Assembly (NCBI GenBank): GCA_036746835.1
Contig: DAIODM010000004.1
Location: 1-60,893, forward strand
Length of the DNA stretch: 60,893 nucleotides
From: Candidatus Onthovivens sp.
Lineage (GTDB): Bacteria; Bacillota_I; Bacilli_A; RFN20; CAG-826
Reading direction: 5' to 3'
The position numbers and the translations under genes are program-made. This document shows positions 41,806 to 56,819 of this stretch, one piece after another. Within the stretch, counting starts at the first letter, position 1. Each line of letters opens with the position of its first letter. Below the pieces are notes generated by a model. That model did not search any database, was not told where the DNA came from, and was given only the letters and a program-made list of their open reading frames with translations.

Positions 41806-44288
41806 TCATGGTCCTTCTTTAATATAATTATGACTTGGAATTCTAATGGATCAAGTGAGGTGGAAACAGAAACCTTTCCATCTTTTACTTTTAAGGTTTG
41901 TTGACGATAACCAGGTGCGGTTTTAAGCTTAAGACTCATGATTTCTTCTTTGTTCCAGAAGTTGAATGCACCTTCTTTAAGCCATTCATCATAAACACTT
42001 CCTTCTTTTCTATTTACGAAAAGTTTTTTACAAACAACATAATTAGAATTGATGTTTGAAATATTAAAATTAAGTTCAAGTGGAGCAAGATTATCATAAA
42101 TTGAATAACGTGAAGTTTGAGTTACGTTATATCTTTCTCCTGAACGATAACGCTCGTTATAATGCTTGTAATTATGAGTTACAATTATGATTTGTTTGTC
42201 ATCTCTAGTTACAATATAGTTATCGCCAATTGCTAATATTTCTGACTTTAATAAAGATAGGAAAGCAAAAGCAAAATAAGATGGTTTCTTTACATTATTA
42301 TATGTTGTTAAACCAAGTCCACCATGTAAAAAGTTGTCTGGAATTGCTTGCTCTAATATAAAATCTGTAAGACACCAAGGTGTGTAATTATAGAAATTTT
42401 TATAATTTTCAATGTAGTTTTTAATGAAGAAATCTCCATTAAATAAAGTATCATTAATTAAATTTCTATGGGAGAATGTTGCGTTAAATTCACCAAGATA
42501 AATTGGTAAATCAATGTTTATATCATGAAGAATAGTTTCAATGCTGTTGTAATAATCTAAAAGGGCATGCTCACTTTTTTTGAACACTTCATTTGTAGAA
42601 GAATTTGGAATATAAGCAGTACTGTATTCATTATGATAGTAGTGAACTTCAATAAATTGAGGTAAACGATCATTCATTTTGCATAATTTTAAAAACTCAA
42701 TTCCCCAATCTATTTGATCTTTGCTGCATAAAATCATTGGAGAACCACCAAATTTTGCATCAGGAATATATTTCTTTAAAACATCAAAAGTTACTTTATA
42801 AAAATTAAAGAATTCTTGAGGCGTACCTATTCTAAATAATCCAAGTTCACTATCAGGTTCATTCCATAATGTATAAATCCATTTATTAACTTCGTTCATT
42901 CCATAACGATAAATAATGTGCTCTAAATATGCACTTAATAAATCAGTCCAATCACTTAAATTTTCAGGTAAAGAAACAATGGAAGTCCCATTAAAAATAG
43001 TATTGTATTTATTTTTTGCTAATAGAGCAGGCATAAAATCCATTTGAACGATAGGTCTTAAATTATGTTCTCTTAAAAAATCATAAACCATATCGAGCAA
43101 AACAAATGAATAGAAAAATTTTCCATCTTTTTTAGTAACAGTCATCATTTCATCATTAAACATGCCATGGAAATTTACATATCTAAAACCAATATCACGG
43201 ACAGCATCAAGCAAAGTTTCTTGAATATCTTTCATTAAAAGTTCTTTTGCTCGGCCAACTCCAACTGAAATATTTGAAATATTTCTTTGATATTCTTTAA
43301 CTTCGTTTGCATCAAAATCTACATTGATGGTGTCTTTTTGTTGGTTTAAATTTGCTTCTTTAAAATCAGAAGTATAGTTATCAGCGTTTTTAAAGAATTT
43401 AGATAAAGCAGCGAGTTTAGTATCTTCAGAAAGCTTTAAATAATTTACTTCTTCATCTGAATCATTGTTCTTTTCTAGAGTGTGATCTTTTCGGTATTCA
43501 CTAGGTAAAGTGCCATATTTTTTCCTAAAAGCACGAACAAAAGTTCGTGGCTCATCATATCCATTTCTAAAAGCAACATCTACGATTGAATCATTACAAT
43601 TTAATAAATCTCTTAAAGTTTTTTCTAGTCTTACTGAAGAGTAATAATCTAAGAAACTGATGCCAACATTTTTCTTAAAGAAACTTGAAAAATATTGTGG
43701 TGTAACTCCCGCTTTATCAGCGACGTCTTCAAGAGATAAATTCTCGTTATAATGTTCATTAATATATTGAGTTATTTCTTTTAATTTACCTAAATTCTTA
43801 TTAACTTTTATATCGCTACTCGTATCAATAAAGTTTTCAGTTAAGTTATCAAGCAGAGAATTAAGGCAAATCAAATTTTTAAGTCCATACTTGTTAGGTA
43901 AACTATCAATTCTAATTAAAGAGATAATATCTTTTCTTAATTTTTCAAATTCTTTATCGTGATTTTTGTCAGTTGTAGTGTTCACATTAAATCTTATAGA
44001 ATCATCGTTTACGATCTTTAAAAATTCTTGATAATCAATTTGAACAGCAACAAGAGTTGCTCCATCCTTACTATATAAAGAGTGAATATCACACGTATTT
44101 ATAAGGATTAAATCATTTTCATCAAGTTTATATTGAACATTATTAATTGAAATGTCGGCTTTTCCATTGATATCAAACAAAATCTCAATGGCATTGTGCC
44201 AATGAGCATTAACATTCCCTATCTTGTGTAAAAAGACTTTAACAGGGACTACGTTTTTAAAATCTATAATCTCGTATCTTTCTTCCAT
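41802..44288 (-). CDS. AraC family regulator fused to a GH39-like glycoside hydrolase domain
   Basis: Cupin HWHNAIEI; double HTH (LSLEDVA...YFSSFFKK; GYDEPRTFVRAFRKKYG); GH39 motifs FHGMFND, WNEP, EVHYY, GEFN, GGLGL...KKPSY. Confidence 0.88.
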   Translation of the reverse strand: MEERYEIIDFKNVVPVKVFLHKIGNVNAHWHNAIEILFDINGKADISINNVQYKLDENDLILINTCDIHSLYSKDGATLVAVQIDYQEFLKIVNDDSIRFNVNTTTDKNHDKEFEKLRKDIISLIRIDSLPNKYGLKNLICLNSLLDNLTENFIDTSSDIKVNKNLGKLKEITQYINEHYNENLSLEDVADKAGVTPQYFSSFFKKNVGISFLDYYSSVRLEKTLRDLLNCNDSIVDVAFRNGYDEPRTFVRAFRKKYGTLPSEYRKDHTLEKNNDSDEEVNYLKLSEDTKLAALSKFFKNADNYTSDFKEANLNQQKDTINVDFDANEVKEYQRNISNISVGVGRAKELLMKDIQETLLDAVRDIGFRYVNFHGMFNDEMMTVTKKDGKFFYSFVLLDMVYDFLREHNLRPIVQMDFMPALLAKNKYNTIFNGTSIVSLPENLSDWTDLLSAYLEHIIYRYGMNEVNKWIYTLWNEPDSELGLFRIGTPQEFFNFYKVTFDVLKKYIPDAKFGGSPMILCSKDQIDWGIEFLKLCKMNDRLPQFIEVHYYHNEYSTAYIPNSSTNEVFKKSEHALLDYYNSIETILHDINIDLPIYLGEFNATFSHRNLINDTLFNGDFFIKNYIENYKNFYNYTPWCLTDFILEQAIPDNFLHGGLGLTTYNNVKKPSYFAFAFLSLLKSEILAIGDNYIVTRDDKQIIIVTHNYKHYNERYRSGERYNVTQTSRYSIYDNLAPLELNFNISNINSNYVVCKKLFVNRKEGSVYDEWLKEGAFNFWNKEEIMSLKLKTAPGYRQQTLKVKDGKVSVSTSLDPLEFQVIIILKKDHE

Positions 44289-44442: not shown

Positions 44443-44456
44443 TGAAAGCGCTTACA
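44443..44456. promoter_or_regulatory. cre/LacI-family operator upstream of the sugar operon
   Basis: TGAAAGCGCTTACA matches the CcpA cre consensus TGWAANCGNTNWCA at all defined positions. Confidence 0.75.
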
Positions 44457-44509
44457 ATCTTATAAAATTATGGCAGTTAGATGTGGAAATGTCCTAAAAG
44501 GAGGTTGCA

Positions 44510-46084
44510 ATGGCAAACGAAGTAATTTTCGAGGTTAAAGATTGCTCAAAGCACTTTGGCCCAACAACAGCGCTCAATCACGTTAATTTCACTATTAGAA
44601 GAGGTGAGATTACTGGTTTGATTGGAGAAAATGGTAGTGGTAAGTCAACTCTTTCGGCTATCATGACTGGTATTTATGACCGCAACGGCGGTGAAATGTT
44701 TTTTAAAGGACAACCATGGGAACCAAAATCAATGATTTGGTCCATGAATAATGGAATAGGCATTATTGTCCAAGAAAAAGGAACTATTAGCAATATTACA
44801 GTTGCTGAAAATATATTCTTAGGTGAAGCTTCCAAATTCTCACTTTTTAAAACTAAAAAAGGAAAATGCTGGGGTCCAGTAATTCGTAAGAGAATGAATG
44901 AAGCGGCTGATAAAGTCCTTAAAGATATGGGAGAAACTAAGTTTACTGGTGCTACTCCAATTAATATGATCAACTTCCAAGATCAAAAATTAATTGAAAT
45001 TGCAAAAGTCATTGCTAAGAATCCTGACATTCTTATTGTTGATGAAACAAGTACTGCTCTTTCTCAACACGGACGTGACATCCTTTATAACTTAATTCAT
45101 AAGATGAGAGATGAGAATAAAGCCGTTGTCTTCATTTCTCACGATTTAGATGAAATTATGGAACAATGCGATACCTTAACAGTCTTACGTGATGGAAACA
45201 TTATTCGTACCTTTGATAAAAAGAAAGGTGAATATGATCCAGATAAGATTAAGGAAAGCATGATTGGTCGTGAACTTAAAGGTGATTATTATCGAAGCGA
45301 TTATGATGGAAGTTTCGATGAAAACAAAGTTGTCTTATCGATGAAACACGCAGTCATTGGTCCTAATATTAAAGATTTTAATCTTAAACTTCATAAAGGT
45401 GAAATTCTTGGTATTGGTGGTCTTAGTGAATGTGGAATGCACGTAATTGGAAAAGCATTATTTGGAGCAATTCCTCTCGATGCTGGTACAGTCTTTGCTT
45501 ATAAAAAGATTGTAGATAAGAAAACTGGCAAAGAAGTTATTAAAGGTTTCCCAATCGATAGTCCAGATCATGCAATTGAAGCTGGAATTGGTTACGCCTC
45601 AAAAGATCGTGATATCGAATCGCTCAACTTAGATGCTCCAATTAAAGATAATATTGCAATTGCTGGTCTTGATAAATTTGCTACTGCTAAATTCTTCATG
45701 GATCCTCGTAAAGAAAAAGCATATGTTAAAAAACAAGCTGATTTCTTATCAATTAAATGTGCATCTTTGGATCAATATGTTAGTGCACTTAGTGGTGGTA
45801 ACAAACAAAAAGTTGCCTTCGCTAAATGGATTGGAAAAGACTGTGATATCTTGATTCTTGATTGTCCAACCCGTGGTGTCGATATTGGTGTTAAACAAGC
45901 AATGTATCAACTTATGTATTCATTAAAGAAACAAGGTAAGTCAATCATTATGATTAGTGAAGAGCTTGCTGAGTTAATCGGAATGAGCGACACACTCGCA
46001 GTTATTAAAGATGGTAAGTTAACTAAGACATTCCCAAGAAGCAAAGATCTTAGTGAATCAGATATCATCAAATACATGATTTAA
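44510..46084 (+). CDS. Sugar ABC transporter ATP-binding protein (CUT2, RbsA/MglA-like, two NBDs)
   Basis: GENGSGKST, VDETSTAL, ISHDLDE, LSGGNKQKV, DCPTRGVDIG. Confidence 0.93.
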   Translation: MANEVIFEVKDCSKHFGPTTALNHVNFTIRRGEITGLIGENGSGKSTLSAIMTGIYDRNGGEMFFKGQPWEPKSMIWSMNNGIGIIVQEKGTISNITVAENIFLGEASKFSLFKTKKGKCWGPVIRKRMNEAADKVLKDMGETKFTGATPINMINFQDQKLIEIAKVIAKNPDILIVDETSTALSQHGRDILYNLIHKMRDENKAVVFISHDLDEIMEQCDTLTVLRDGNIIRTFDKKKGEYDPDKIKESMIGRELKGDYYRSDYDGSFDENKVVLSMKHAVIGPNIKDFNLKLHKGEILGIGGLSECGMHVIGKALFGAIPLDAGTVFAYKKIVDKKTGKEVIKGFPIDSPDHAIEAGIGYASKDRDIESLNLDAPIKDNIAIAGLDKFATAKFFMDPRKEKAYVKKQADFLSIKCASLDQYVSALSGGNKQKVAFAKWIGKDCDILILDCPTRGVDIGVKQAMYQLMYSLKKQGKSIIMISEELAELIGMSDTLAVIKDGKLTKTFPRSKDLSESDIIKYMI

Positions 46085-46096
46085 AAGGAGGAAATT

Positions 46097-47182
46097 ATGT
46101 CATTAAAAGATTTAATAAAAAATAAAAAAACTACTGAAACTCCTAAACCACAAGAAAATGGTGCGGTTGTAGTTGAGACTCAAGAAGAGAAAAAGGCAAA
46201 AACACTTAAAGCCTTCACTCGTCAAAAGTTAATTGGTAGTTTCTTACCATTTGTCGGATTAATCGTTCTATTTGTTCTTTATTCAGTAATTATTATTAAC
46301 GAAGGTTACTTATATGAAGATGCAATTTGGGCAACATTCGATCGTGGTGTCTATATTGCAATCATGGCAATCGGTGCAAGTTTCTTATTCACCCTTGGTC
46401 AATTCGATTTATCACTTGGTAGTGCAATGGGTTTAAGTGCTGCCGCTGCTCTTCTTGTTTATAGAGGAACTGGAAATATTGGATTAACTATTGTCGTTTG
46501 TATCGTTACAGCTATTGTCGTTAGTTTACTTAATATTCTCTTCTCATCAATCTTACGAGTTCCAATCTTCATTATGTCTATCGCAATGATGACGGTTCTC
46601 CAAAAGGTTATCTTAGGTTTAATTAGTGCCTTCTCAACGTCTGGTGAATCAAGTATTAACTTATCACCAAACCCATTCAATGACACTTTCCTTTATACCA
46701 AATGGTTTAGATTGATAGTCCTTATTGTATATTTCATTGTTTGTTTCTTTATCTTCAGATATTTAAAGTTTGGTCGTAAAGCAAAATTCTTAGGTGGAAA
46801 CCCATTCTGCGCAAGATTAACTGGTATTTCTCCAAGAACTAATTCAATTATTGCCTTCTTAATTTGTGCTGTTGGTGTTGGTCTTACGTCACTTGTCTTC
46901 ATTTGTGAAACTCCAATTGTAACAAGTGCAACCGGAACTACATATGGTATGGATATCATGGTCGCTATTGTTATCGGTGGTATGCCAATGTCAGGTGGTG
47001 CTCGTAGTAAGATTACTGCTTCTGTCTGTGGTGCATTTACTCTTGCTTTCCTTGAAGCGGTCTTAAGATCGTTCCCAGAAACAAGTGGTGAAGGAATGAT
47101 TCAAATCGTTAAAGCTGTGTTGTTTATTGTTTTGGTCTTTATGTCTAGTTGGTCTTATCGTGGTAAGACGCTTCCTAGATAA
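46097..47182 (+). CDS. Sugar ABC transporter permease 1 (RbsC-like)
   Basis: Multi-TM; GQFDLSLGS, FGRKAKFLGGNP...ARLTGI, VAIVIGGMPMSGG. Confidence 0.9.
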   Translation: MSLKDLIKNKKTTETPKPQENGAVVVETQEEKKAKTLKAFTRQKLIGSFLPFVGLIVLFVLYSVIIINEGYLYEDAIWATFDRGVYIAIMAIGASFLFTLGQFDLSLGSAMGLSAAAALLVYRGTGNIGLTIVVCIVTAIVVSLLNILFSSILRVPIFIMSIAMMTVLQKVILGLISAFSTSGESSINLSPNPFNDTFLYTKWFRLIVLIVYFIVCFFIFRYLKFGRKAKFLGGNPFCARLTGISPRTNSIIAFLICAVGVGLTSLVFICETPIVTSATGTTYGMDIMVAIVIGGMPMSGGARSKITASVCGAFTLAFLEAVLRSFPETSGEGMIQIVKAVLFIVLVFMSSWSYRGKTLPR

Positions 47183-47220
47183 AAATATATTTCACTTTTT
47201 AAGGGAGGAATTAAAATTCT

Positions 47221-48648
47221 ATGAAAAAAATGAAAAGTGTATTAGTCAGTAGTGCTGCGATTGGTATTCTTTGTGCCGGTCTCGTTGGTTGTGGAAATAG
47301 TAATGGTGGTAAAATCCGTATTGGATTTATTAACCCAGATACAGGCGGTGGTGAAACTGTTGCTTGGGCAAGTTATGTAAGTGATTATTTAACTAAAGCT
47401 TATAGCGATAAGTATCAATTCTATGTTTAAACTTTCAACGCTTTTACATCAACTACAAACTCAACAACTGAGTGCAAAGATATGTTAGCAAAAGGTTGTA
47501 AAGCCATTGTCGAAATTGGTTATGGTACTGAAGCTAACTTTACTGCTTGTAAAGAAAAAGGTGCTTATTATTGCGCCGTTGGTTCATCACCAAATAATAA
47601 AACTAAATTAACCAGTGCTGAATGGGGCAGCATTAATGATCACTTCGTCGGTGTTTTAGGACCAAGTCTCGATCAAGAAGCTCAAGCTGGTTACGATATG
47701 GCTGATCACTATATTAAACAAGGATTAAAAGATTTCGGAATTTATGGTTGTGTCATCGGATATGCTCAATCTTATGGGGTTACCGTTCACGCTTGGCGTG
47801 TTGCCGGTATGCTTAAGAGAATGCTTGAAGATGCTCCAGATTCAACTACTCAATATTGCGCATTTGATAATGGTAGTGGTAAGCAAGTTGGCTTCACCAA
47901 GAATAGTACCATTGATGAAATGGAAGGCATTATTGCTGGTCGAAGTAACTTCTATGGTGTTGATGCAAATGGTAAACAATGGGCCGTCGGTGATATTTGC
48001 AAAGTCGGACCATATAGAATCAATTATTGGCAACAAAACGTTGCTGATACCACTTTAAATGATGCAGAAGAGGTTTATTTTACCACTGATAAAGCTGGTA
48101 ATAATAATCCAGATTCAACCTTCAAAGCCCAAGTAATTTTAGGTAGTGCCAGTGCTTATGGTATGTTTGCTAAAAAGGGAAGATGTGTCATTGGTAGTGA
48201 TGGTAAGGTCGATTTAGGTATTGCTGAAGTCGAGTCCTTCGCTGATGCTAATAAAGCCGCCATGCAAAGTGGTTATATTACCTATGAATGTGGCAAGATG
48301 AACAGCTGTATTGGTCCTGCTTTCGCTGCTGTCTTCAGTGCTTTAAATGGTCGTAACTTTGGTGTTGATGCAGCTGGTAAAGCTGAATTAATGGTTGGTA
48401 GTCAAGGTTTCTGGAATGTTGGTAGTGTTAGTGAGTTTGAAGAATTAGCAACTTTTGATGCTTATGCTACTCACCCAGCCTATTCAAGAGCTTTACTTGA
48501 AACTATGACTTATAAGACTGAAGCCGAAACTGATCCAGATGGTAAGACATATCCAGTTAACAACATTACTAAGGATGAATTCTTAGCTAAGTTCAACGCT
48601 TATACTTACGCTGATGTTAAAGCTGCTCGTACTGCTGCTGAAGCTTAA
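47221..48648 (+). pseudogene. Sugar ABC substrate-binding lipoprotein interrupted by one in-frame TAA
   Basis: ORFs 47221-47430 and 47482-48648 share a frame. TAA at 47428-47430 is the only break (QFYV*TFNAFTSTTNSTTECKDMLAKG). Lipobox LVGC. The restored product would be 475 codons. May be a sequencing or strain variant. Confidence 0.8.
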
Positions 48649-48696
48649 TCAATTAAATAAATTATAGATGAGACTAGCTTATTAATTACGAAAGGG

Positions 48697-48722
48697 TCCT
48701 GGCCTAATAAAATAGGCCAGGA
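48697..48722 (+). other. Intra-operon stem-loop after the SBP gene
   Basis: TCCTGGCCTA-ATAAAA-TAGGCCAGGA, no U tract. Confidence 0.65.
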
Positions 48723-48736
48723 ACTATGGTGAAAAT

Positions 48737-49837
48737 ATGGAAAGAAACAAAGGATTAGATTTAACTACTAAAAAAGGAAAGATCCTTTTCAAATTAATGA
48801 ATATTGGAAAAGCTCTTATTCTTCCTGTAGTTATAACTTTAATTTTCCTTGTCACAACAAGCGCACAAGGATTACAACTTTTTAGCGAATACACAGATTA
48901 TCAAATCTTTACTCGTCAAGTGGTTGTTGCATTACTTATTGCTTTCGCATTTGGTATGCACATGTCACAAGGTCGTATGGATTTCTCAATTGGTGCAACA
49001 ATGATTTTAGGAGAAATTATTACAACTCAACTCATGGTTAAAATGGGTTTATTAACTAATACATTCCTCTTCTTCATTCTTATTGTTACGATTACCTGTG
49101 CATTATCGGTTATCGGTGGTCTTGTTTACGTACTTTTCCGTATTCCACCTATGATTAGTGGCTTAGGTATGACCTTACTCTATGAAGGAATTGCTTATAA
49201 CTTAAATGAAAAAGCATCGGGAACTTCACGTTTCGATCTTGTTTCAAATAACTTTGCAGTTACCTTTAATGGAATTGGTGAAATGCTTATTTTAGCTGCG
49301 ATTATCATAATTATTATGATTGGAATCTATCGATATTCTAAATGGAGTTTCGATAGTGCTTTATTACAAAATGGTCAATTACAAGCAGTTCAATGTGGTG
49401 TTAAAGAAGTTCCAAATACTTTAATTGGATACGCTTTAGCTGGTGTTTTAATTGGTATTGCTGGATTCGTTACTGTTGGAAATGCGACTATTTTAACTGC
49501 ATCTGTTGGCTTTGGTTCTACTGCAACTACAATGAGCGCAATGCTCCCAATGTTTATTGGTGGATTTATTTCATCCTTTGTACCTTATCCAGTTGCTATT
49601 TGTCTTGGTGCTATAAGTTCAACTATGCTCTCTTATGGTTTAGGAAAAACCTTCATTATGAAAGATGGTTCAACCTATGCTTCAATTATTAACGCTTTAT
49701 TCTTACTCTTCTTCTTAGCTTATATGTTTAATCAATATAAGATCAAAGAAGTGTTACATATTAGGTCCTTCATTGCTAATAAAAAGCTAAGAAGGCTCTC
49801 AAGAAAGAAATGGAAGGTCTTGAATAATGAATACTGA
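48737..49837 (+). CDS. Sugar ABC transporter permease 2
   Basis: Multi-TM; GRMDFSIGA, RIPPMISGLG, AVQCGV, PMFIGG. Confidence 0.88.
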   Translation: MERNKGLDLTTKKGKILFKLMNIGKALILPVVITLIFLVTTSAQGLQLFSEYTDYQIFTRQVVVALLIAFAFGMHMSQGRMDFSIGATMILGEIITTQLMVKMGLLTNTFLFFILIVTITCALSVIGGLVYVLFRIPPMISGLGMTLLYEGIAYNLNEKASGTSRFDLVSNNFAVTFNGIGEMLILAAIIIIIMIGIYRYSKWSFDSALLQNGQLQAVQCGVKEVPNTLIGYALAGVLIGIAGFVTVGNATILTASVGFGSTATTMSAMLPMFIGGFISSFVPYPVAICLGAISSTMLSYGLGKTFIMKDGSTYASIINALFLLFFLAYMFNQYKIKEVLHIRSFIANKKLRRLSRKKWKVLNNEY

Positions 49838-51557
49838 AAAAATTAAAGAATTAAAAGGGAAACCTTTTTATCTTAAAGATGAAGATATCAAGTGGATTAA
49901 TGATACGCTTAACTCAATGACTTTAGATGAGAAGATTGGTCAATTATTCCATCTTGTTGCATATTCTAGTGAAGAAAAAGTCCTCGAACATATGGTCAAA
50001 GATTTACATATTAATGGCTTAATGGTCAGAGGCGGAATGCCTATTGAAGAAGTTTGCTTTGTTACTAATTATCTTCAAAAGAATAGTAAAATTCCTTGTT
50101 TAATTAGTGCTAACCTTGAAAGTGGTGGCAGTGGTTGTGTTAAGGAAGGTACTCAAGTTGGTAAACAAATGCAAATTGGTGCTACTGATAAAGTTGAAAA
50201 TGCAACTTTATTAGCTCACGTTTGTGGCGAAGAAGCTAATGCAGTTGGCGTAAATTGGGCTTTTGCTCCAGTTAGTGATATTGATCTTAATTGGCGTAAT
50301 CCAATTACCAATACTCGTTTATATTGCAATGATTATAAAAAAGTTGCTGCATATACTACTGCTTATATTAAAGAAGTTCAAAAACTCGGTTTACTTGGTT
50401 GTGGAAAACACTTCCCAGGAGATGGAGTTGATGAAAGAGATCAACATCTTGTCGCTAGTGTAAACAGTTTATCTCGCGAAGATTGGATGAAGATGTATGG
50501 TCATATTTATAAGACACAAATTGAAAATGGTGTTAAGACCATCATGGTTGGACATATTCTTCAACCAGCATGGGAGAAATATTTAACTCCAGGTTTAAAA
50601 GATAAAGATTGTATGCCAGGAACCTTAAGTAAAGGTTTAGTCACTGGTTTACTTCGTGGTGAACTTGGTTTTAAAGGTATGATTACAACCGATGCTACAA
50701 CAATGGCTGGTATGACAACAATGATGCGTAGAGATCTTGCAGTTCCTACTACAATTGCGATTGGTTGCGATTGTTTCTTATTTACTAAGAACCTTGATGA
50801 AGATTATAAGTTCATGATGGAAGGTTATAAAAAAGGAATTATTACTCCAGAAAGACTTGATGATGCAGTTACGAATGTTTTAGCCGCTAAAGCCTCAATT
50901 GGTTTACATAAAGCAAAAGCTAATGGATCAATTATTAAAGATCCAGTTGCTGCTAGTAAAGTTGTTGGTTGTAAAGAATTCCAAGATGATGCAAAGATGA
51001 TTGCTGATAATTGCATCACTATTATTAAGGAAGAGAAGGGTGTTTTACCTCTTTCACCAAAGAAATACAAGAAAGTATTACTTTATGGACTTGAAGTTGA
51101 AGCACCAAATGTCTTTGGTTTCACAAATGATAGTATTATTAATGATTTCCAAAAGAAGCTTGAAAAAGAAGGATTTGAAGTTACAAGATTCTCTCCTCAA
51201 AAAGCTCTTAAAGAAGGTATGTTACAAGGCGTAGAAGATATGAAGAAGAATTATGATTTACTTCTTTATTGTGCTAACCTTGCAACTAAATCAAATCAAA
51301 CATCTATTAGAATTGAATGGCATATTCCATTTGGAACAGATGTTCCAGCTTATGTAAAAGAAGTTCCAACTGTCTTCGTAAGTTTAGAGAATCCATATCA
51401 CTTGATTGATGTTCCTCGTGTTGAAACATTTATTAATACATATGGCGGCAGCCAATACGTTCTTGATGCTTTAATTGAAAAGTTAATGGGAAGAAGTAAG
51501 TTTACTGGTAAAGACCCAGTTGATTCATTCTGCGGCATGTGGGATACTCACTTATAA
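49827..51557 (+). CDS. GH3 glycosidase of the His acid/base (NagZ-like) group; predicted beta-glycoside phosphorylase
   Basis: ANLESG, WAFAPVSDI, NPITNTR, KHFPGDGVDERDQH (50406-50447), IMVGHI, nucleophile TTDATTM. Confidence 0.85.
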   Translation: MNTEKIKELKGKPFYLKDEDIKWINDTLNSMTLDEKIGQLFHLVAYSSEEKVLEHMVKDLHINGLMVRGGMPIEEVCFVTNYLQKNSKIPCLISANLESGGSGCVKEGTQVGKQMQIGATDKVENATLLAHVCGEEANAVGVNWAFAPVSDIDLNWRNPITNTRLYCNDYKKVAAYTTAYIKEVQKLGLLGCGKHFPGDGVDERDQHLVASVNSLSREDWMKMYGHIYKTQIENGVKTIMVGHILQPAWEKYLTPGLKDKDCMPGTLSKGLVTGLLRGELGFKGMITTDATTMAGMTTMMRRDLAVPTTIAIGCDCFLFTKNLDEDYKFMMEGYKKGIITPERLDDAVTNVLAAKASIGLHKAKANGSIIKDPVAASKVVGCKEFQDDAKMIADNCITIIKEEKGVLPLSPKKYKKVLLYGLEVEAPNVFGFTNDSIINDFQKKLEKEGFEVTRFSPQKALKEGMLQGVEDMKKNYDLLLYCANLATKSNQTSIRIEWHIPFGTDVPAYVKEVPTVFVSLENPYHLIDVPRVETFINTYGGSQYVLDALIEKLMGRSKFTGKDPVDSFCGMWDTHL

Positions 51558-51558
51558 T

Positions 51559-52197
51559 ATGAAATATAGTGGAGTAATTTTTGATTTAGATGGTGTTATT
51601 TGTTTTACTGATGAATATCACTATCTATCTTGGAAAGCTATTGCAGATAAAGAAGGAATTTACTTTGATCGAACAATAAATAATCGTCTTAGAGGTGTTA
51701 GTCGAATGGCTTCTCTTGATATTATTTTAGAGAAAGCAAATAAGACATATAGTGAACAAGAAAAAGTTGCTCTTGCAACTGAAAAGAATGAGATATATAA
51801 GGGTTATTTAGTTAAAATGACTCCGAAAGATGTCTCTAGCGATGTTTTAAAAACACTAAAAACTTTACGTGCAAAAGGTATTAAAATTGCAATTGGTTCA
51901 TCAAGCAAAAACACTAAATTAATTTTAAAACAAATCGGTTTACTTGATGCGTTTGATGAGATTGCTGATGGTAATGATATTACACACAGCAAACCAGACC
52001 CTGAAGTATTCCTTTGTGCAGCAAAGAAAATCAAAGAAGATCCAAAAGATTGTATTGTTGTTGAAGATGCTTATGCTGGAATTGATGCAGCAAATGCTGG
52101 ACATTTTACTAGCGTAGCAATTGGTGATGCAGCTAACTATGACAAAGCCAATTATAAGATAAAGAAGTTAAGCGATATTTTAAAAATTATTAAATAA
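51559..52197 (+). CDS. pgmB: Beta-phosphoglucomutase (HAD family)
   Basis: IFDLDGVICFTDEYHYLSWK, RLRGVSRMASL, GSSSKN, SKPDPEVF, VEDAYAG. Start at ATG 51559, 1 nt after the GH3 stop. Confidence 0.92.
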   Translation: MKYSGVIFDLDGVICFTDEYHYLSWKAIADKEGIYFDRTINNRLRGVSRMASLDIILEKANKTYSEQEKVALATEKNEIYKGYLVKMTPKDVSSDVLKTLKTLRAKGIKIAIGSSSKNTKLILKQIGLLDAFDEIADGNDITHSKPDPEVFLCAAKKIKEDPKDCIVVEDAYAGIDAANAGHFTSVAIGDAANYDKANYKIKKLSDILKIIK

Positions 52198-52205
52198 GGA
52201 GCATT

Positions 52206-52991
52206 ATGGCACACATTGAAATTAATTTTATAAGCGCTACTTTTACTCGAGCTGTTGATGTATTACTTATTTTACCAAGCCGAACAACTATGGAAGGCAT
52301 GATGGATAAAGGTCAAACTTTAAAAAATCACTATCAAAGTGTTAAAGATAAGAAATTCCCTTTACTCATTCTTCTTCATGGTATGGCTAACAACTTTAAA
52401 ACTTGGGCAAATTATGCTCGTGTTGAATTATATGCTGAAGAGCATAACATTGCGATTGCAATGGTAAGTGGTGAAAATAAGTTTTATTTAAATAATAAAG
52501 CTGACAAATGGTATGACTTTATTGAATATGAACTTAAAGATTATTTATATGGCACATTCCCAATTTCTAGCGATCCAAAAAATAACTATATTGCTGGATT
52601 AAGTATGGGTGGATTTGGTGCTTTATATCATGGTATCAGTAATCCAAAAGCTTATGCTGCAATTGGTTCATTTAGTGGTGCTATTCATATTGATGGAAAA
52701 GGATTTGAAAATATGGGTGTTGAACCTGAATTTACTCCAATTCCTGAAATGGCTTTAAAGAACAAGAAAGATTTACCTCCACTTTATGTTGCTTGTGGAA
52801 GCGATGATTTCTTATATCAAGCTAATGTCGATTTTGCAAAATTTTTAGATGATAATAAGATTAAAAATTATCATGAATTTGTTCCAGGATTTACTCATGA
52901 ATGGAGATTCTGGGATCTTGAACTTGAAAAATTCTTAGACTGGATTCCTCGTAGTGATGATTATAAAGAAGTCAGCAAGAGAAAAGTTTAA
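52206..52991 (+). CDS. Alpha/beta-hydrolase esterase (tributyrin esterase/CE1-like)
   Basis: LLHG, GLSMGG nucleophile elbow, CGSDD, HEWRFW. Confidence 0.88.
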   Translation: MAHIEINFISATFTRAVDVLLILPSRTTMEGMMDKGQTLKNHYQSVKDKKFPLLILLHGMANNFKTWANYARVELYAEEHNIAIAMVSGENKFYLNNKADKWYDFIEYELKDYLYGTFPISSDPKNNYIAGLSMGGFGALYHGISNPKAYAAIGSFSGAIHIDGKGFENMGVEPEFTPIPEMALKNKKDLPPLYVACGSDDFLYQANVDFAKFLDDNKIKNYHEFVPGFTHEWRFWDLELEKFLDWIPRSDDYKEVSKRKV

Positions 52992-53006: not shown

Positions 53007-53033
53007 TAGGCCCTTTTCTTGTGAAAGGGCCTA
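53007..53033 (+). other. Intra-operon stem-loop
   Basis: TAGGCCCTTTT-CTTGT-GAAAGGGCCTA, no U tract. Confidence 0.65.
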
Positions 53034-53055: not shown

Positions 53056-55302
53056 ATGGATAAATTAGCAAAAACAATAAATTCAATGTCAATCGAAGAC
53101 AAATTAAAAACTGTACACGGTTCTAGTTTTTGGTTATTTAATAGTTATAGCAAAGATGTAAATCCTGTTAGTTGTACGGATGGACCAAACGGAATTAGAA
53201 AACAAAAAAGAGATGGGGATAATCTATTAATTTCTCAAAATTATGTTGAATGTACAACTTTTCCAACTGGTTCAACTTTTGCGTGTTCGTTTGATAAAGA
53301 GTTAGTTAATAAAATGGCTAAAGCATTAGCAATGGAATTCCAATTCTATAATGTTAATGTTTTATTAGGTCCTGCTGCTTGTATTAAAAGAAATCCATTA
53401 TGTGGTCGTAATTTCGAATATTTAAGTGAAGATCCTATTCTAAGCGGATATATAGCTGGAAATTATATTAAAGGAGCTGAATCTACTGGAACGGGGACTA
53501 GTTTAAAGCATTATGTAGCCAATAACCAAGAATTTGGTAGACAAATTAATTCCTCAACAATGTCTATTAAATGTTTAAGAGATATTTATACTAGAGGTTT
53601 TGAGATTGCTGCTCGAATTGGTAAACCTGCAACTATCATGGTTTCTTATAATAAGATTAATGGTGTTTATGCTTGTGAAAATAGTTACATTATGCAACAA
53701 GTAATGAGAAAAGAAGTGGGATATGAAGGGTTTTTCATTAGCGATTGGACTGGCGTTAGTAATCCTCTTGCTTCAATTAAAGCAGGTTTAAATGTTGAAA
53801 TGCCTGAAAGAAATTATGGTCCTAATTTCTATGAATTAGCTTATAAAGAAGGAAAAATTAAGGAAGATGATTTAAATGAACTTCTTCGTTATTACATTCC
53901 TTTTATTGATAAATATAGTAAAACTTATAATATTAAATCTATTGATTTTGAAGAGAATTTAAAATTAGCAGTTGAGGTTGCTGAAAACTCAATTGTTCTT
54001 GCAAAAAATGAAGAAAATTTCTTCCCACTATCTAAAGAAGAATCTCTCATTGTTTTAGGCAATCGTGCTAAACATATGGCTTATTTAGGTGGCGGAAGTA
54101 GTATGACAAACTCTCATCATAAACCTGACTTCATAAAAGTTTTGACTGACAATAATGTCAATTATAAATTTTTCGATTGTTATGATAAAAAAGGAAATTT
54201 AGATTTAAATTGTCTTAAGGAAATTAATAATGAAAAGGTTCTTGTTTTCTTAGGAACTGGTGATTTCGAAGAGAGCGAAGGCTTCGACCGAAAAGATATG
54301 AAATTACCTCCATACGAATTGAAATTAATGGAAGAATTAGCAAAAATAACGAAGAATGTAGGTGTTATTGTCGAATCTGGTTCAGTTGTTGAGCTTCCAT
54401 TCTTAGATAATATTAAAGGTTTATTTATTCCATATTTCGCTGGAGAAGGTGAAGATTATGCTTTATATAATTTAATTTATGGAAAGACTAATCCAAGCGG
54501 TAAACTTGCTGAAACCTGGATTAAAAAATATGAAGATTGTCCAAGTTCGTCATCTTATGATAAAGATGTTTATAACTCATATTATGATGAAGATATTTAT
54601 GTAGGATATCGATATTATGATAAGCATAATATCAAAGTTAATTTTCCATTCGGTCATGGTCTATCTTATACTAAATTTAAATTAAATTTATTAAGAACAG
54701 CCGTTAGTAAAGCCCATATTAAATGTGAAATCGAAGTTACTAATTTAGGTGATACTAAAGGTAAAGAAGTAATTGAAATTTATCTTGGAAAGAAAGATTC
54801 AAAAATCTATAGAGCTCCTCGTGAATTAGTAGGATTTAGTAAAGTTGAGGTTTTTCCTCATAGTAAAAAGAGAGTTATTGTGACAATTGATAACCTTGAT
54901 TTAAGGGTTTATGATCCTTCAACTAACAAATTAACCTTAGAAAATGGAAATTATGAATTATATTTAGGTGATTCTTCTCGATGTGATTTTATTGAAGAGA
55001 AAATAACTTTAGTCGGAGAGAATATTAAACCTTATGAACTTGTTGGACCTGATCATTCTTTGGTTTTTAAAGAAACAAAGGACATGAACATATTAGCATC
55101 AACCGTTTCAGAAACGCCTACATTTAAAGCGATACTTAAAAATGCTGGATTTACTGAAGATGTTCTACATCATAGTTTCTTCAAAGATGGTTTTTTCAAA
55201 AATCTAATTCGTGGTCTATCTGGATTAGGTTCGATTGATTATTGTGATGTTGAAAGACTACTTCCTCAGATGCTTAAGGAACTTGAAAATAGTAAAAAAT
55301 AA
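53056..55302 (+). CDS. GH3 beta-glucosidase (BglX-like, with FnIII domain)
   Basis: TDGPNGIR, PLCGRNFEYLSEDP, KHYVANNQE, nucleophile SDW, ESEGFDR, NPSGKL, VGYRYYD, FPFGHGLSYT. Confidence 0.92.
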   Translation: MDKLAKTINSMSIEDKLKTVHGSSFWLFNSYSKDVNPVSCTDGPNGIRKQKRDGDNLLISQNYVECTTFPTGSTFACSFDKELVNKMAKALAMEFQFYNVNVLLGPAACIKRNPLCGRNFEYLSEDPILSGYIAGNYIKGAESTGTGTSLKHYVANNQEFGRQINSSTMSIKCLRDIYTRGFEIAARIGKPATIMVSYNKINGVYACENSYIMQQVMRKEVGYEGFFISDWTGVSNPLASIKAGLNVEMPERNYGPNFYELAYKEGKIKEDDLNELLRYYIPFIDKYSKTYNIKSIDFEENLKLAVEVAENSIVLAKNEENFFPLSKEESLIVLGNRAKHMAYLGGGSSMTNSHHKPDFIKVLTDNNVNYKFFDCYDKKGNLDLNCLKEINNEKVLVFLGTGDFEESEGFDRKDMKLPPYELKLMEELAKITKNVGVIVESGSVVELPFLDNIKGLFIPYFAGEGEDYALYNLIYGKTNPSGKLAETWIKKYEDCPSSSSYDKDVYNSYYDEDIYVGYRYYDKHNIKVNFPFGHGLSYTKFKLNLLRTAVSKAHIKCEIEVTNLGDTKGKEVIEIYLGKKDSKIYRAPRELVGFSKVEVFPHSKKRVIVTIDNLDLRVYDPSTNKLTLENGNYELYLGDSSRCDFIEEKITLVGENIKPYELVGPDHSLVFKETKDMNILASTVSETPTFKAILKNAGFTEDVLHHSFFKDGFFKNLIRGLSGLGSIDYCDVERLLPQMLKELENSKK

Positions 55303-55319: not shown

Positions 55320-56819
55320 ATGGATAATTTAATTGTTAAGACAAATTGTGGAGATGTTAAAGGCTATAAAGTTAAAGATGTTTTTAGATTTGAAGGTATT
55401 CCATTTGCTGAAAAACCTGTTCGTTTTAAAAGATCAGTTGAACTTAAAAAGTTTGATAAATTAATTGATGCAAAAGAACCTGCTGGTAGCTGCTATCAAT
55501 TTGGTCCTAATTTTGATGGAGATACGACTCCCAATGAATCAGAAGATTGTTTATATTTAAACGTTTTTACCAAAGAAACAAAAACTAAAAAACCAGTTTT
55601 CGTTTGGATTCATGGTGGTGGTTTTTTAACTGGATGTAGTTATTATCCAATGTATGATGGAACTAGTTTTGCAAAAAACGATGAAGTATATGTAAGTATT
55701 AATTATCGTTTAGGTGTTTTTGGATTTTATGATTTCCATCTTTTAAGCAAAGATTTTGATGAAAACATTGGTATTTATGATCAAATTGTTGCTTTAAATT
55801 GGATTAAACATAATATTGAAGCATTTGGTGGAGATCCTAATAATATTACAATTTGTGGTGAATCAGCTGGTGGAATTAGTGTTTTAACTTTACTTGCTTC
55901 ACCAACTACAAAAGGTTTATATAATAAAGCAATTGTTGAATCAAGTTTACCATATTGTATTTTTGGTAAAGAACAAGCGAAGATTTATGTTGATGCTTTC
56001 TTAAAAGTAAGTGGTATCGATGAAAAACATTTAAATAAATTAAATGAATTATATCCTAAAAAGATTATTGAATTAAATGGTCTAGCGATGGCTCTTGTAA
56101 ATAAAGATCATCCAGGATTTAATATTGCTTCTCCAGTTTGTGGAACCGATATTCTCCCTTACGATATTATTGAAGCGAATAAAAGAAGAATTAATGATAA
56201 TGTAAAACTTATTATTGGTACCAATAGAGATGAAGGTACTTTATTCTGCCAAAATAACGAACACAGTATGTTCCCATATGGATGGGATAAAGTTGGTACT
56301 ATGCTTACTTTAACAAAACACGATGATATTCTTCCTTCATTAAAAGAATACTATGATAAAACTTGGAAAGATTATGAATTCCATCAACTTGCTTACGATA
56401 CTTTATTTATTAGAGGAGCTTTAAACGTTGCAGAAACTCGAAGTGTTTATAGTGATGTCTATGTTTTTAGATTTGATTACGCTCTTCCAATAACAAAGAA
56501 ACTTGGCTTTAAAGCATGTCATGCTCTTGAGATGTCTTTCGTTTTAGGAACAACTGATTCAATGGCTGATCATCATCCATTCTTTAGACCAGGATATGAT
56601 AAAGTTGAAGTCAAAGAAGTTGAAAAACAAATGAATGATGCTTGGATTAACTTTGCTAAAAATGGTGATCCAAAAGGTGATAGTTTAATTGTTCCATGGC
56701 CTAAATATAATTACGAAACTAAACTTGCTCATGCTTTTAATGTTGAGCCATCGATTATTAGTTATAAAGATTATGAGCCAGTTAAGCTTCTTGACGATAT
56801 TAGAATTTGGACGCACTAA
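55320..56819 (+). CDS. Type-B carboxylesterase/lipase (p-nitrobenzyl esterase-like)
   Basis: GIPFA, SEDCLYLNV, VWIHGGGF, GESAGG (Ser), GTNRDEG (Glu), CHALE (His). Confidence 0.92.
   Translation: MDNLIVKTNCGDVKGYKVKDVFRFEGIPFAEKPVRFKRSVELKKFDKLIDAKEPAGSCYQFGPNFDGDTTPNESEDCLYLNVFTKETKTKKPVFVWIHGGGFLTGCSYYPMYDGTSFAKNDEVYVSINYRLGVFGFYDFHLLSKDFDENIGIYDQIVALNWIKHNIEAFGGDPNNITICGESAGGISVLTLLASPTTKGLYNKAIVESSLPYCIFGKEQAKIYVDAFLKVSGIDEKHLNKLNELYPKKIIELNGLAMALVNKDHPGFNIASPVCGTDILPYDIIEANKRRINDNVKLIIGTNRDEGTLFCQNNEHSMFPYGWDKVGTMLTLTKHDDILPSLKEYYDKTWKDYEFHQLAYDTLFIRGALNVAETRSVYSDVYVFRFDYALPITKKLGFKACHALEMSFVLGTTDSMADHHPFFRPGYDKVEVKEVEKQMNDAWINFAKNGDPKGDSLIVPWPKYNYETKLAHAFNVEPSIISYKDYEPVKLLDDIRIWTH

What the first reader, a model, noticed from the sequence alone, without database searches (positions are those of the whole stretch)
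49827..52197. GH3 phosphorylase-type enzyme coupled to beta-phosphoglucomutase
The GH3 has the His acid/base loop as KHFPGDGxxxxDQH, not the NagZ GHG...DSH. Characterised enzymes of this type (Cellulomonas fimi Nag3, metagenomic BglP) are retaining phosphorylases giving beta-sugar-1-phosphate, and as I recall Gln at this position favours glucosides. The next gene, 1 nt away, is beta-PGM, which accepts only beta-G1P and normally accompanies GH65 enzymes; no GH65 is in the window. The context therefore independently supports a beta-glucoside to beta-G1P to G6P route.
Basis: partly seen in the sequence, partly recalled or inferred. Interest (0 to 1): 0.75.

Follow-up and report, generated by a model that had tools for sequence, protein, structure and literature searches.

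The report
GH3 beta-glucoside phosphorylase with beta-phosphoglucomutase
A sugar-uptake operon encodes an enzyme that probably splits beta-glucosides with phosphate rather than water, followed directly by the enzyme that feeds the product into glycolysis; it is a new copy of an arrangement already present around the two characterised enzymes of this type.

Summary
ORF 49827-51557 encodes a 576-aa GH3 with the loop KHFPGDGVDERDQH. One nucleotide downstream, 51559-52197 encodes a beta-phosphoglucomutase (TIGR01990, 237 bits against a cutoff of 189). No GH65 lies in the window.

The GH3 is 48% identical to Cellulomonas fimi Nag3 and 43% to BglP (PDB 5VQD/5VQE), full length in both cases. Both are reported retaining phosphorylases. 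The predicted fold matches 5VQE at TM 0.89.

Both characterised enzymes are themselves followed by a beta-PGM gene with a 4-nt overlap. The C. fimi nag3 locus has the same operon as this window:
- an AraC-GH39 fusion regulator
- a CUT2-type ABC importer
- the GH3
- beta-PGM

Among 80 species-level loci of this GH3 clade, 53 carry beta-PGM within 8 kb, always on the same strand. Thirty are directly adjacent. None has a detectable GH65.

The commonest accessory genes are esterases and GH78 rhamnosidases. This hints at acylated or rhamnosylated beta-glucosides as the natural substrates.

This is a new member of a known kind. The transporter's binding-protein gene carries an in-frame stop codon.

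The parts
41802..44288 (-). Divergently transcribed AraC-family regulator (cupin plus HTH_18) fused to a full GH39 beta-xylosidase-like domain; the probable sensor and activator of the operon.
   Evidence: Pfam hits: AraC_binding, HTH_18, and Glyco_hydro_39 at E 6e-59. PDB GH39 beta-xylosidases 1PX8 and 1W91 match at E 1e-51 over residues 341-706. The same fusion lies next to the GH3 in 29 loci, including 28 of the 80 genome loci, and also in C. fimi. Both candidate catalytic Glu residues (E477 in WNEP, E600 in GEFN) are kept in 26 of 29.
44510..46084 (+). ABC transporter ATPase with two nucleotide-binding domains, CUT2 (ribose/xylose) type.
   Evidence: Pfam ABC_tran in two stretches. NCBIfam RbsA, XylG and GguA score 355-370 bits, all below their cutoffs. 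Clustered homologues lie in 31 loci, the window included.
46097..47182 (+). ABC permease 1 (BPD_transp_2).
   Evidence: Pfam BPD_transp_2, E 1.5e-25. Clustered homologues in 30 loci, the window included.
47222..48648 (+). Lipoprotein solute-binding protein gene (lipobox LVGC) interrupted by an in-frame TAA at 47428-47430. An ATG at 47482 restarts a 388-aa ORF that lacks the signal peptide.
   Evidence: tblastn with the intact 475-aa orthologue of L001 gives 71% identity across the stop, where L001 has Ser. The DNA was read directly. A family profile reaches CUT2 type-I binding proteins only distantly (YtfQ, E 7.5e-10).
48737..49837 (+). ABC permease 2; overlaps the GH3 start by 11 nt.
   Evidence: Weak NCBIfam MglC and AlsC permease hits. 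Clustered homologues in 28 loci, the window included. The overlap was read.
49827..51557 (+). GH3 of the Nag3/BglP clade; predicted cytoplasmic retaining beta-glucoside phosphorylase.
   Evidence: Full-length identity: 48% to C. fimi Nag3 and 43% to BglP. PDB phmmer gives 5VQD at E 1.6e-141. The AlphaFold model (pLDDT 82) matches 5VQE at TM 0.89/0.91. No N-terminal signal peptide is visible in the sequence.
50406..50447 (+). Acid/base loop K194-H207, KHFPGDGVDERDQH: Asp205/His207 dyad with Gln206 between them.
   Evidence: Invariant in the 19-sequence alignment A1. D-Q-H is present in 238 of 240 fetched homologues. It aligns to the D-S-H of B. subtilis NagZ.
50691..50693 (+). Asp289, the predicted catalytic nucleophile (motif TTDAT).
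   Evidence: Invariant in A1. It aligns with the TDA motif of BglP and with Asp318 of B. subtilis NagZ, the residue mutated in PDB entries 4GYJ and 3LK6.
51559..52197 (+). Beta-phosphoglucomutase (pgmB), 1 nt after the GH3 stop codon.
   Evidence: TIGR01990 scores 237.4 bits against a cutoff of 189.4. PDB beta-PGMs match at E 2e-48 to 1e-35. The DxD motif (D9, D11) and T17, H21, G46-V47-S48-R49, K76, S114, N118, K145, E169-D170 are invariant across 49 GH3-linked homologues.
52206..52991 (+). Esterase (PF00756 family), probably the last gene of the operon.
   Evidence: Pfam Esterase, E 4e-17. PDB esterases 4RGY and 6VH9 and ferulic acid esterases 7XRT and 8BBP match. Homologues lie between or after GH3 and pgmB in 6 other loci (cluster c11).
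53007..53033 (.). 11-bp GC-containing hairpin; a possible bidirectional terminator separating the operon from the next unit.
   Evidence: Best-scoring terminator-like site in 41-61 kb, found on both strands. The T-run is poor, so this is tentative.
53056..55302 (+). Second GH3, of the classical three-domain hydrolytic beta-glucosidase (BglB-like) type with an Fn3-like domain.
   Evidence: Pfam Glyco_hydro_3, Glyco_hydro_3_C and Fn3-like. PDB beta-glucosidases 8J9F and 7MS2 match at E 1e-130. NCBIfam exo-alpha-(1->6)-L-arabinopyranosidase scores 494 bits, well below its cutoff of 1300.
55320..56819 (+). Type-B carboxylesterase.
   Evidence: Pfam COesterase, E 3e-92. COesterase-family genes occur in 10 of 124 co-directional neighbours of the GH3 elsewhere.

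Best explanation
Genes 44510-52991, with the divergent regulator at 41802-44288, form a catabolic operon for an imported beta-glucoside.

Proposed steps:
1. A CUT2-type ABC importer brings the glycoside into the cytoplasm.
2. In the GH3 (49827-51557), Asp289 attacks the anomeric carbon and forms a glucosyl-enzyme. The His207/Asp205 dyad, uncharged at the relevant step unlike the usual Glu, lets phosphate enter in place of water. The glucosyl group passes to phosphate with net retention, giving beta-glucose 1-phosphate plus the aglycone.
3. The translationally linked beta-phosphoglucomutase (51559-52197) converts beta-G1P to glucose 6-phosphate through its Asp9 phospho-enzyme. This saves the ATP that hydrolysis followed by a kinase would cost.
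4. The esterases and the second, hydrolytic GH3 downstream probably strip decorations from the substrate.

What is shown here: clade membership, conservation of the catalytic residues, the operon layout, and the conserved GH3-pgmB linkage.

What is inferred: phosphorolysis by this particular protein, by homology to Nag3 and BglP; the catabolic direction; and the substrate class. The substrate class is possibly acylated and/or rhamnosylated plant-type beta-glucosides, inferred from the neighbour census.
For: Homology and structure:
- Full-length homology to the two characterised GH3 phosphorylases: 48% to Nag3, 43% to BglP, and E 1.6e-141 to 5VQD.
- The predicted fold matches 5VQE at TM 0.89, against 0.78 or less for NagZ structures.
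- The loop is identical to that of Nag3, and D-Q-H occurs in 238 of 240 clade members.

Beta-PGM:
- It scores above the TIGR01990 equivalog cutoff, with all catalytic residues conserved.

Linkage:
- 53 of 80 species loci have beta-PGM within 8 kb, always on the same strand. Thirty are adjacent and 18 have one gene between.
- 48 of 49 linked HAD proteins match TIGR01990 at roughly its cutoff.
- Nag3 and BglP are each followed by beta-PGM with a 4-nt overlap.
- The C. fimi nag3 locus has the same ABC / GH3 / pgmB / AraC-GH39 arrangement.

Absence of the usual partner:
- No GH65 in the window.
- None detected among 54 large and 124 co-directional neighbours in other genomes.

Literature:
- Nag3 and BglP yield beta-Glc1P and beta-GlcNAc1P (PMC8950772, PMC7519651).
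- Phosphate markedly affects the C. fimi enzyme but not NagZ-type enzymes (PMC6987092).
Against: - No biochemistry exists for this protein.
- A His/Asp dyad alone does not guarantee phosphorylase activity. R. marinus and H. seropedicae NagZ-type enzymes are hydrolases (PMC6987092). Franceus et al. 2021, as summarised in PMC10913872, tie phosphate recognition to three active-site positions that I could not identify or check.
- 23 of 80 clade loci have no beta-PGM within the 2-8 kb of flank available on each side.
- The binding-protein gene of the importer carries an in-frame stop, so the pathway may be impaired in this organism, unless the stop is an assembly error.
- The natural substrate of this clade is not established. 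CUT2 transporters usually carry monosaccharide-sized ligands.
Confidence: 0.78

Rival explanations
1. The GH3 works in vivo mainly as an ordinary hydrolase (beta-glucosidase or N-acetylglucosaminidase, as databases annotate it). On this view beta-PGM is next to it for another reason, for example to serve a GH65 phosphorylase encoded elsewhere.
For: - Sources name close homologues 'beta-N-acetylhexosaminidase'.
- NagZ is the best NCBIfam match, at 94.7 bits.
- Some His/Asp GH3 enzymes are pure hydrolases (PMC6987092).
- The rest of this genome is not available to check for a GH65.
Against: - The NagZ score is far below its cutoff of 207.
- The clade's two characterised members are phosphorylases (PMC8950772).
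- Same-strand linkage to beta-PGM in 53 of 80 species, with no GH65 found nearby, is hard to explain if the GH3 makes no beta-G1P.
Confidence: 0.12
2. The enzyme acts on beta-GlcNAc substrates, for example GlcNAc-anhydroMurNAc from peptidoglycan recycling. PMC8950772 gives this as the preferred reaction of Nag3.
For: - The review assigns Nag3 a peptidoglycan-recycling reaction.
- Nag3 and BglP both accept GlcNAc donors in vitro (Table 1 of PMC8950772).
Against: - Gln206 replaces the Ser/Thr of the NagZ D-S-H loop. By my recollection of Macdonald et al. 2018, Gln to Ser switches BglP from glucoside to GlcNAc-ide specificity.
- The partner enzyme is a beta-PGM equivalog, which acts on beta-G1P.
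- The operon holds an ABC sugar importer, esterases and, in other genomes, GH78 rhamnosidases and rhaBAD. It holds no murein-recycling genes.
Confidence: 0.04
3. The pair runs in the synthetic direction: G6P to beta-G1P to a beta-glucoside, by reverse phosphorolysis, to make a glucosylated product.
For: Glycoside phosphorolysis is reversible. Both characterised enzymes catalyse reverse phosphorolysis in vitro (Table 1 of PMC8950772).
Against: The genes sit behind an ABC importer with a lipoprotein binding protein, and alongside esterases, rhamnosidases, rhamnose catabolic genes and ROK kinases. That is the signature of a catabolic locus.
Confidence: 0.03

Closest known systems
Cellulomonas fimi Nag3 (P0243; 'beta-N-acetylglucosaminidase/beta-glucosidase'; shown to be a phosphorylase by Macdonald et al. 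2015, JBC 290:4887)
   Same: - 48% identity over the full length.
- Identical KHFPGDGVDERDQH loop.
- Same two-domain size (564 against 576 aa).
- Same operon: CUT2 ATPase, permease, unusual binding protein, permease, GH3, beta-PGM, and an AraC-GH39 fusion regulator.
   Different: - High-GC actinobacterium against a roughly 30% GC 'Bacilli' lineage.
- In C. fimi the regulator lies downstream on the same strand, with a GH78 rhamnosidase and a LacI gene flanking the locus.
- In the window the regulator is divergent, and the accessory genes are two esterases and a BglB-like GH3.
- The window's binding-protein gene has a premature stop.
BglP (AUG44408.1; PDB 5VQD/5VQE), a metagenomic retaining beta-glucoside phosphorylase (Macdonald et al. 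2018, JBC 293:3451)
   Same: - 43% identity over the full length.
- Predicted fold TM 0.89-0.91.
- D-Q-H dyad loop and TDA nucleophile motif.
- Followed by a beta-PGM-type gene with a 4-nt overlap.
   Different: - BglP's loop is DYRDQH rather than DERDQH.
- Its transporter is CUT1 type (SBP_bac_1 plus two BPD_transp_1), with a two-component system instead of AraC-GH39.
- Its HAD neighbour scores exactly at the TIGR01990 cutoff.
- Relatives in Erysipelotrichaceae insert a ROK kinase between GH3 and beta-PGM.
GH65 phosphorylase / beta-PGM systems (for example maltose, trehalose and kojibiose phosphorylase operons)
   Same: The metabolic logic is the same: phosphorolysis gives beta-G1P, and beta-PGM then gives G6P. 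This saves one ATP per glucose (PMC11442529).
   Different: - GH65 enzymes invert alpha-glucosides through a single displacement, on an (alpha/alpha)6 fold.
- Here a retaining (beta/alpha)8 GH3 would act on beta-glucosides through a covalent intermediate.
- No GH65 is present in the window or in the neighbourhoods examined.
NagZ-type GH3 beta-N-acetylglucosaminidases (B. subtilis YbbD; PDB 3BMX, 4GYJ)
   Same: - Same GH3 subfamily fold (TM 0.78).
- His/Asp dyad on the same loop.
- Same Asp nucleophile.
   Different: - Only 23-24% identity.
- The loop is KHFPGHG....DSH rather than KHFPGDG....DQH.
- The NagZ NCBIfam model scores 94.7 against a cutoff of 207.
- NagZ enzymes belong to murein recycling, not to a sugar-import operon.

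Membership tests
GH3 retaining beta-glycoside phosphorylases (Nag3/BglP clade) | GH3 two-domain architecture: an N-terminal (beta/alpha)8 barrel plus a C-terminal alpha/beta domain, about 565-575 aa, with no Fn3 domain. | tested here: met
   Pfam Glyco_hydro_3 covers residues 32-352. Glyco_hydro_3_C gives a weak, below-cutoff match over 397-565. The AlphaFold model matches 5VQE and 5VQD at TM 0.89-0.91 over 566-571 alignment columns.
GH3 retaining beta-glycoside phosphorylases (Nag3/BglP clade) | An Asp/His dyad as acid/base in place of Glu, on the KHFPG-x-G-x4-D-x-H loop. | tested here: met
   K194-H207 reads KHFPGDGVDERDQH. The loop is invariant in A1 and identical to that of Nag3.
GH3 retaining beta-glycoside phosphorylases (Nag3/BglP clade) | Gln between the dyad Asp and His; associated with glucoside rather than GlcNAc-ide specificity in BglP. 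| tested here: met
   Gln206 is present, and D-Q-H occurs in 238 of 240 homologues. The functional meaning rests on my memory of the abstract of Macdonald et al. 2018, which could not be checked here.
GH3 retaining beta-glycoside phosphorylases (Nag3/BglP clade) | The catalytic Asp nucleophile. | tested here: met
   Asp289 in TTDAT aligns with BglP and with NagZ Asp318. It is invariant in A1.
GH3 retaining beta-glycoside phosphorylases (Nag3/BglP clade) | The three phosphate-recognition positions defined by Franceus et al. 2021. | not tested
   The positions are mentioned only in summary in PMC10913872. The primary paper is not held, so the residues could not be identified.
GH3 retaining beta-glycoside phosphorylases (Nag3/BglP clade) | Phosphate-dependent cleavage that yields beta-glucose 1-phosphate with retention. 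| not testable with these tools
   This needs an enzyme assay.
Beta-phosphoglucomutase (TIGR01990, EC 5.4.2.6) | A score above the curated equivalog cutoff. | tested here: met
   237.4 bits against 189.4.
Beta-phosphoglucomutase (TIGR01990, EC 5.4.2.6) | The HAD DxD nucleophile and acid motif, plus the cap and core substrate-binding residues of L. lactis beta-PGM. | tested here: met
   D9, D11, T17, H21, G46, V47, R49, K76, S114, N118, K145, E169 and D170 are invariant across 49 GH3-linked homologues. The correspondence to the L. lactis residues (D8, D10, T16, H20, and so on) is from my own knowledge. L. lactis 1LVH matches at E 1e-38.
NagZ (murein-recycling beta-N-acetylglucosaminidase, NF003740) | An equivalog score above the cutoff, and a D-(S/T)-H loop. 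| tested here: not met
   94.7 bits against a cutoff of 207. The loop has Gln, not Ser or Thr.
GH65 / beta-PGM operon | A GH65 phosphorylase encoded beside beta-PGM. | tested here: not met
   No GH65 Pfam domain is found in any window ORF of 150 aa or more. No GH65 family appears in the 25 families listed for the 54 large neighbours or for the 124 co-directional neighbours. Only 25 of the 88 and 117 matched families were shown, so a weak hit could be hidden. The rest of the genome is not available.

The most novel reading that the evidence does not exclude
The conserved module would be a widespread, energy-conserving pathway dedicated to small decorated beta-glucosides. The module comprises an AraC-GH39 fusion regulator, an unusual CUT2 ABC importer, a GH3 phosphorylase and beta-PGM, usually with esterases and/or GH78 rhamnosidases. 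Candidate substrates are acylated and/or 6-O-glycosylated phenolic or terpenoid glucosides of plant origin.

If so, this would supply the long-missing physiological substrates of the Nag3/BglP enzymes. It would also overturn the peptidoglycan-recycling role currently assigned to Nag3. The GH39-like domain of the regulator would act as the ligand sensor, and possibly as a processing enzyme.
Probability: 0.3. Interest if true: 0.6.

Novelty: new member of a known kind. Interest (0 to 1): 0.35.

Why it matters
GH3 phosphorylases are the only known retaining phosphorylases acting on beta-glycosides. According to a 2022 review (PMC8950772), only two have been characterised, and neither has an established natural substrate.

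This window adds nothing new in kind. The comparative work it prompted does add three things:
- The clade is very large. More than 6,000 proteins reached E <= 1e-30 among the 8,000 candidates scored for the window GH3, though that threshold is loose enough to admit other GH3 subfamilies. All 240 homologues fetched (the best 120 of two searches) are at least 43% identical to their query, and 238 of them carry D-Q-H.
- It is genetically wired to beta-PGM in most species sampled, including the two characterised enzymes.
- Its recurrent neighbours (esterases, rhamnosidases, an AraC-GH39 regulator) give concrete substrate hypotheses.

For anaerobic fermenters, one ATP saved per glucoside is physiologically meaningful. 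The enzymes are also of interest for making beta-glucose 1-phosphate and beta-glucosides.

Tried and rejected
- **Primary papers.** I tried to read Macdonald et al. 2018 (PMC5836126), Macdonald et al. 2015 (PMC4335228) and, indirectly, Franceus et al. 2021. None is held. As a result, three things could not be checked: whether the authors already noted the beta-PGM neighbour, which Gln they mutated, and which three positions bind phosphate.
- **Literature searches.** Eight full-text searches found no held paper that describes the GH3-pgmB linkage or the operon.
- **GH65 in C. fimi.** I looked for it in the genome paper and its supplements and found nothing usable.
- **The binding protein.** It gave no Pfam hit. 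A family profile gave only distant PDB matches to CUT2 binding proteins such as YtfQ and the ribose-binding protein, so the ligand could not be inferred. I did not model it, because the rules allow only a single truncated window sequence.
- **NagZ-type control.** The chance expectation for the linkage is therefore argued rather than measured.
- **Promoter scan.** The consensus scan is uninformative in this AT-rich DNA: it found fewer sites than the shuffles did.
- **TTG start at 51520.** I considered it for pgmB and rejected it. It adds 13 residues that overlap the GH3 and are absent from homologues.

Full report
**The observation.** The ORF at 49827-51557 (+) encodes a 576-aa protein. It matches Pfam Glyco_hydro_3 (E 1e-53) and gives a weak, below-cutoff match to Glyco_hydro_3_C. 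Residues 194-207 read KHFPGDGVDERDQH, while the aligned loop of B. subtilis NagZ (YbbD) reads KHFPGHGDTDVDSH.

The GH3 ends with TAA at 51555-51557. One base later, an ATG at 51559 opens MKYSGVIFDLDGV.... This 212-aa product scores 237.4 bits on the NCBIfam equivalog TIGR01990, beta-phosphoglucomutase, against a cutoff of 189.4. Its best PDB matches are all beta-PGMs.

I ran Pfam on all 41 window ORFs of at least 150 aa, and none has a GH65 domain.

**What the GH3 is.** A search of PDB sequences gives one outstanding hit: 5VQD/5VQE, 'beta-glucoside phosphorylase BglX', which is BglP (E 1.6e-141, full length).
- BLASTP identity to the 100%-identical database copy of BglP (P0121) is 43%.
- An AlphaFold model built from 19 homologues has mean pLDDT 82. 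It matches 5VQE and 5VQD at TM 0.89-0.91, while NagZ structures reach 0.78 at most.
- A homology search seeded with the Actinotalea member of the clade returned the protein that NCBI names 'beta-N-acetylglucosaminidase/beta-glucosidase [Cellulomonas fimi]'. This is Nag3 (P0243). It carries exactly the window's loop, KHFPGDGVDERDQH, and is 48% identical over the full length.

The window protein therefore lies inside the clade that holds both characterised GH3 phosphorylases. A 2022 review lists these as the only two characterised (PMC8950772). Both make beta-glucose 1-phosphate (PMC7519651).

The clade is large and uniform. More than 6,000 database proteins reach E <= 1e-30 among the 8,000 candidates scored, although that threshold also admits other GH3 subfamilies. 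Of the 240 homologues fetched, 238 have D-Q-H.

The NagZ equivalog model scores only 94.7 bits against a cutoff of 207. This matters because the earlier generalisation that all His/Asp GH3 enzymes are phosphorylases has been disputed. NagZ-type enzymes from R. marinus and H. seropedicae are not phosphorylases, whereas phosphate markedly affects the C. fimi enzyme (PMC6987092). Membership of the Nag3/BglP clade, rather than the dyad alone, is what supports the prediction.

**The link to beta-PGM.** I scanned one genome per species (GTDB) with clade-specific patterns and kept 80 loci, 46-84% identical to the window GH3. They come mostly from Bacillota (Clostridia, Paenibacillus, Christensenellaceae, Erysipelotrichales, Acholeplasmatales), with some from Actinomycetota, a Treponema and an Anaerolineae MAG.

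tblastn with the window's beta-PGM gave these counts:

| Position of the beta-PGM homologue | Loci |
|---|---|
| Within 200 nt of the GH3 | 30 |
| One gene between | 18 |
| Further away, within 8 kb | 5 |
| None found, both flanks at least 2 kb | 23 |
| None found, one flank under 2 kb (uninformative) | 4 |

- All 53 homologues are 41-71% identical, near full length, and on the same strand as the GH3.
- 48 of 49 aligned candidates match TIGR01990 at about its cutoff E-value. The catalytic and substrate-binding residues are invariant across them.
- Beta-PGM is normally a single-copy gene, so by my estimate chance linkage within 8 kb would be well under 1%. I could not measure a NagZ control.

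The two characterised enzymes show the same linkage.
- On JGI metagenome contigs that encode a protein identical to BglP, the next gene overlaps it by 4 nt. It is a 210-aa HAD protein that scores exactly at the TIGR01990 cutoff.
- In C. fimi CP002666, Nag3 is followed, again with a 4-nt overlap, by a 214-aa protein scoring 221 bits on TIGR01990.
- No GH65 family appears among the 25 families listed for 54 large neighbouring ORFs or for 124 co-directional neighbours.

**The wider operon.** Clustering all ORFs of the loci showed a recurrent module in about 30 species:
- a divergent AraC-family regulator of about 830 aa, fused to a GH39 domain
- a CUT2-type ABC system: a double-NBD ATPase, a permease, a lipoprotein binding protein and a second permease
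- the GH3
- often one accessory gene
- beta-PGM

The window has exactly this order (41802-52197). C. fimi has the same components around nag3.

In the window the genes are tightly packed. Permease 2 overlaps the GH3 by 11 nt. GH3 and pgmB are 1 nt apart, and pgmB and the esterase are 8 nt apart. The best terminator-like hairpin follows the esterase at 53007-53033.

A Pfam census of 124 co-directional neighbours of the GH3 in other genomes shows which accessory genes are commonest:

| Pfam family in co-directional neighbours | Count of 124 |
|---|---|
| Abhydrolase_3 / BD-FAE esterases | 23 |
| GH78 alpha-L-rhamnosidases | 11 |
| COesterase | 10 |

Several loci also carry rhaB, rhaA and rhaD.

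The window itself adds three further genes:
- a PF00756 esterase with ferulic-acid-esterase relatives in the PDB
- a classical BglB-like GH3 beta-glucosidase
- a type-B carboxylesterase

In the BglP subclade, Erysipelotrichaceae loci insert a ROK kinase between GH3 and pgmB. That would fit a sugar leaving group there.

My inference, marked as such, is that the clade degrades imported beta-glucosides whose decorations differ between lineages. In the window's subclade these are probably acyl- and/or rhamnosyl-decorated small glucosides. This sits poorly with the peptidoglycan-recycling reaction that PMC8950772 attributes to Nag3.

**Mechanism.**
- Inferred by homology: Asp289 forms the glucosyl-enzyme, and the Asp205/His207 dyad admits phosphate, which attacks to give beta-G1P with retention.
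- Shown by family membership: beta-PGM, with Asp9 and Asp11, isomerises beta-G1P to G6P.
- The GH3 sequence shows no signal peptide, which is consistent with cytoplasmic phosphorolysis.
- The benefit is one ATP per glucose compared with hydrolysis plus a kinase.

**Caveats.**
- There is no biochemistry for this protein.
- The three phosphate-recognition positions of Franceus et al. 2021 could not be checked.
- The Gln-specificity claim rests on my memory of an abstract.
- The rest of the genome is unavailable for a GH65 check.
- The binding-protein gene (47222-48648) has an in-frame TAA at 47428-47430, where the orthologue in the closest MAG has Ser. Import may be defective here, or the base call may be wrong.

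**Novelty.** The enzyme type has been known since 2015 and 2018, and the window is a new member. I found no held paper that describes the pgmB linkage or the conserved operon.

I rate the finding as a correct and well-supported annotation of modest interest (0.35). Its more interesting, untested extension is the substrate and regulator hypothesis for the whole clade.

Noticed in passing
window 47222-48648 (stop codon at 47428-47430): The ABC transporter's lipoprotein binding-protein gene has an in-frame TAA at codon 70. The orthologue in the closest MAG (L001, 71% identical) is intact and has Ser at that position. A 388-aa ORF restarts at 47482 without the signal peptide. This is either a pseudogene or an assembly error.
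   Followed up: partly
window 41802-44288 (-); also L089 10356-12914 and 28 of the 80 genome loci: An AraC-type regulator fused to a full GH39 beta-xylosidase-like domain is conserved next to the GH3/pgmB genes. Both candidate catalytic glutamates are retained in 26 of 29 members, and the other three have Gln at both positions. It also resembles the N-terminal half of staphylococcal AryK/Rsp-type regulators (NCBIfam, 148 bits, below cutoff). It may be an enzyme-derived ligand sensor that is still catalytically competent.
   Followed up: partly
window 47222-48648; alignment A6: The binding proteins of this transporter family are 370-475 aa long (about 385-400 aa typically). Some members have no Pfam hit, others only a weak Peripla_BP_4 hit. 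A family profile matches solved CUT2 binding proteins only distantly (YtfQ, E 7.5e-10). This is a divergent subfamily with an unknown ligand.
   Followed up: partly
window 24634-36008: The window spans the chromosomal replication origin. The genes gyrA, gyrB, recF, dnaN and dnaA lie on the minus strand. Seven DnaA-box-like sites (two perfect TTATCCACA) lie at 33374-33568. Then rpmH, rnpA, yidC, jag and mnmE follow on the plus strand. GC skew changes sign at about 32-34 kb.
   Followed up: partly
window 34251-36008: The YidC homologue is 585 aa long. It has a lipoprotein-like N-terminus and a region of about 350 aa with no Pfam hit ahead of the 60KD_IMP domain (residues 357-573). From my own knowledge, this is unusually long for a low-GC Gram-positive lineage.
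   Followed up: no
window 53056-55302: A second GH3 of the classical hydrolytic three-domain beta-glucosidase type lies two genes downstream of the phosphorylase-type GH3 (E 1e-130 to PDB 8J9F and 7MS2). The locus therefore pairs a hydrolytic and a putatively phosphorolytic GH3.
   Followed up: partly
L087 9714-11533; L088 10108-11952: In Erysipelotrichaceae relatives of BglP, a ROK-family kinase sits between the GH3 and beta-PGM. This would suit a substrate whose leaving group is itself a sugar that needs phosphorylation.
   Followed up: no
L086 (Breznakiella homolactica CP067089.2) and 23 of the 80 genome loci: A sizeable minority of D-Q-H GH3 genes have no beta-PGM within the sequence examined. 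In Breznakiella the next gene is an MFS transporter. Their beta-PGM may be encoded elsewhere, or these enzymes may be used differently.
   Followed up: no
window 2384-6458: A 982-aa protein combining SBP_bac_3 and EAL domains is followed by an overlapping GGDEF protein, forming a cyclic-di-GMP signalling pair.
   Followed up: no
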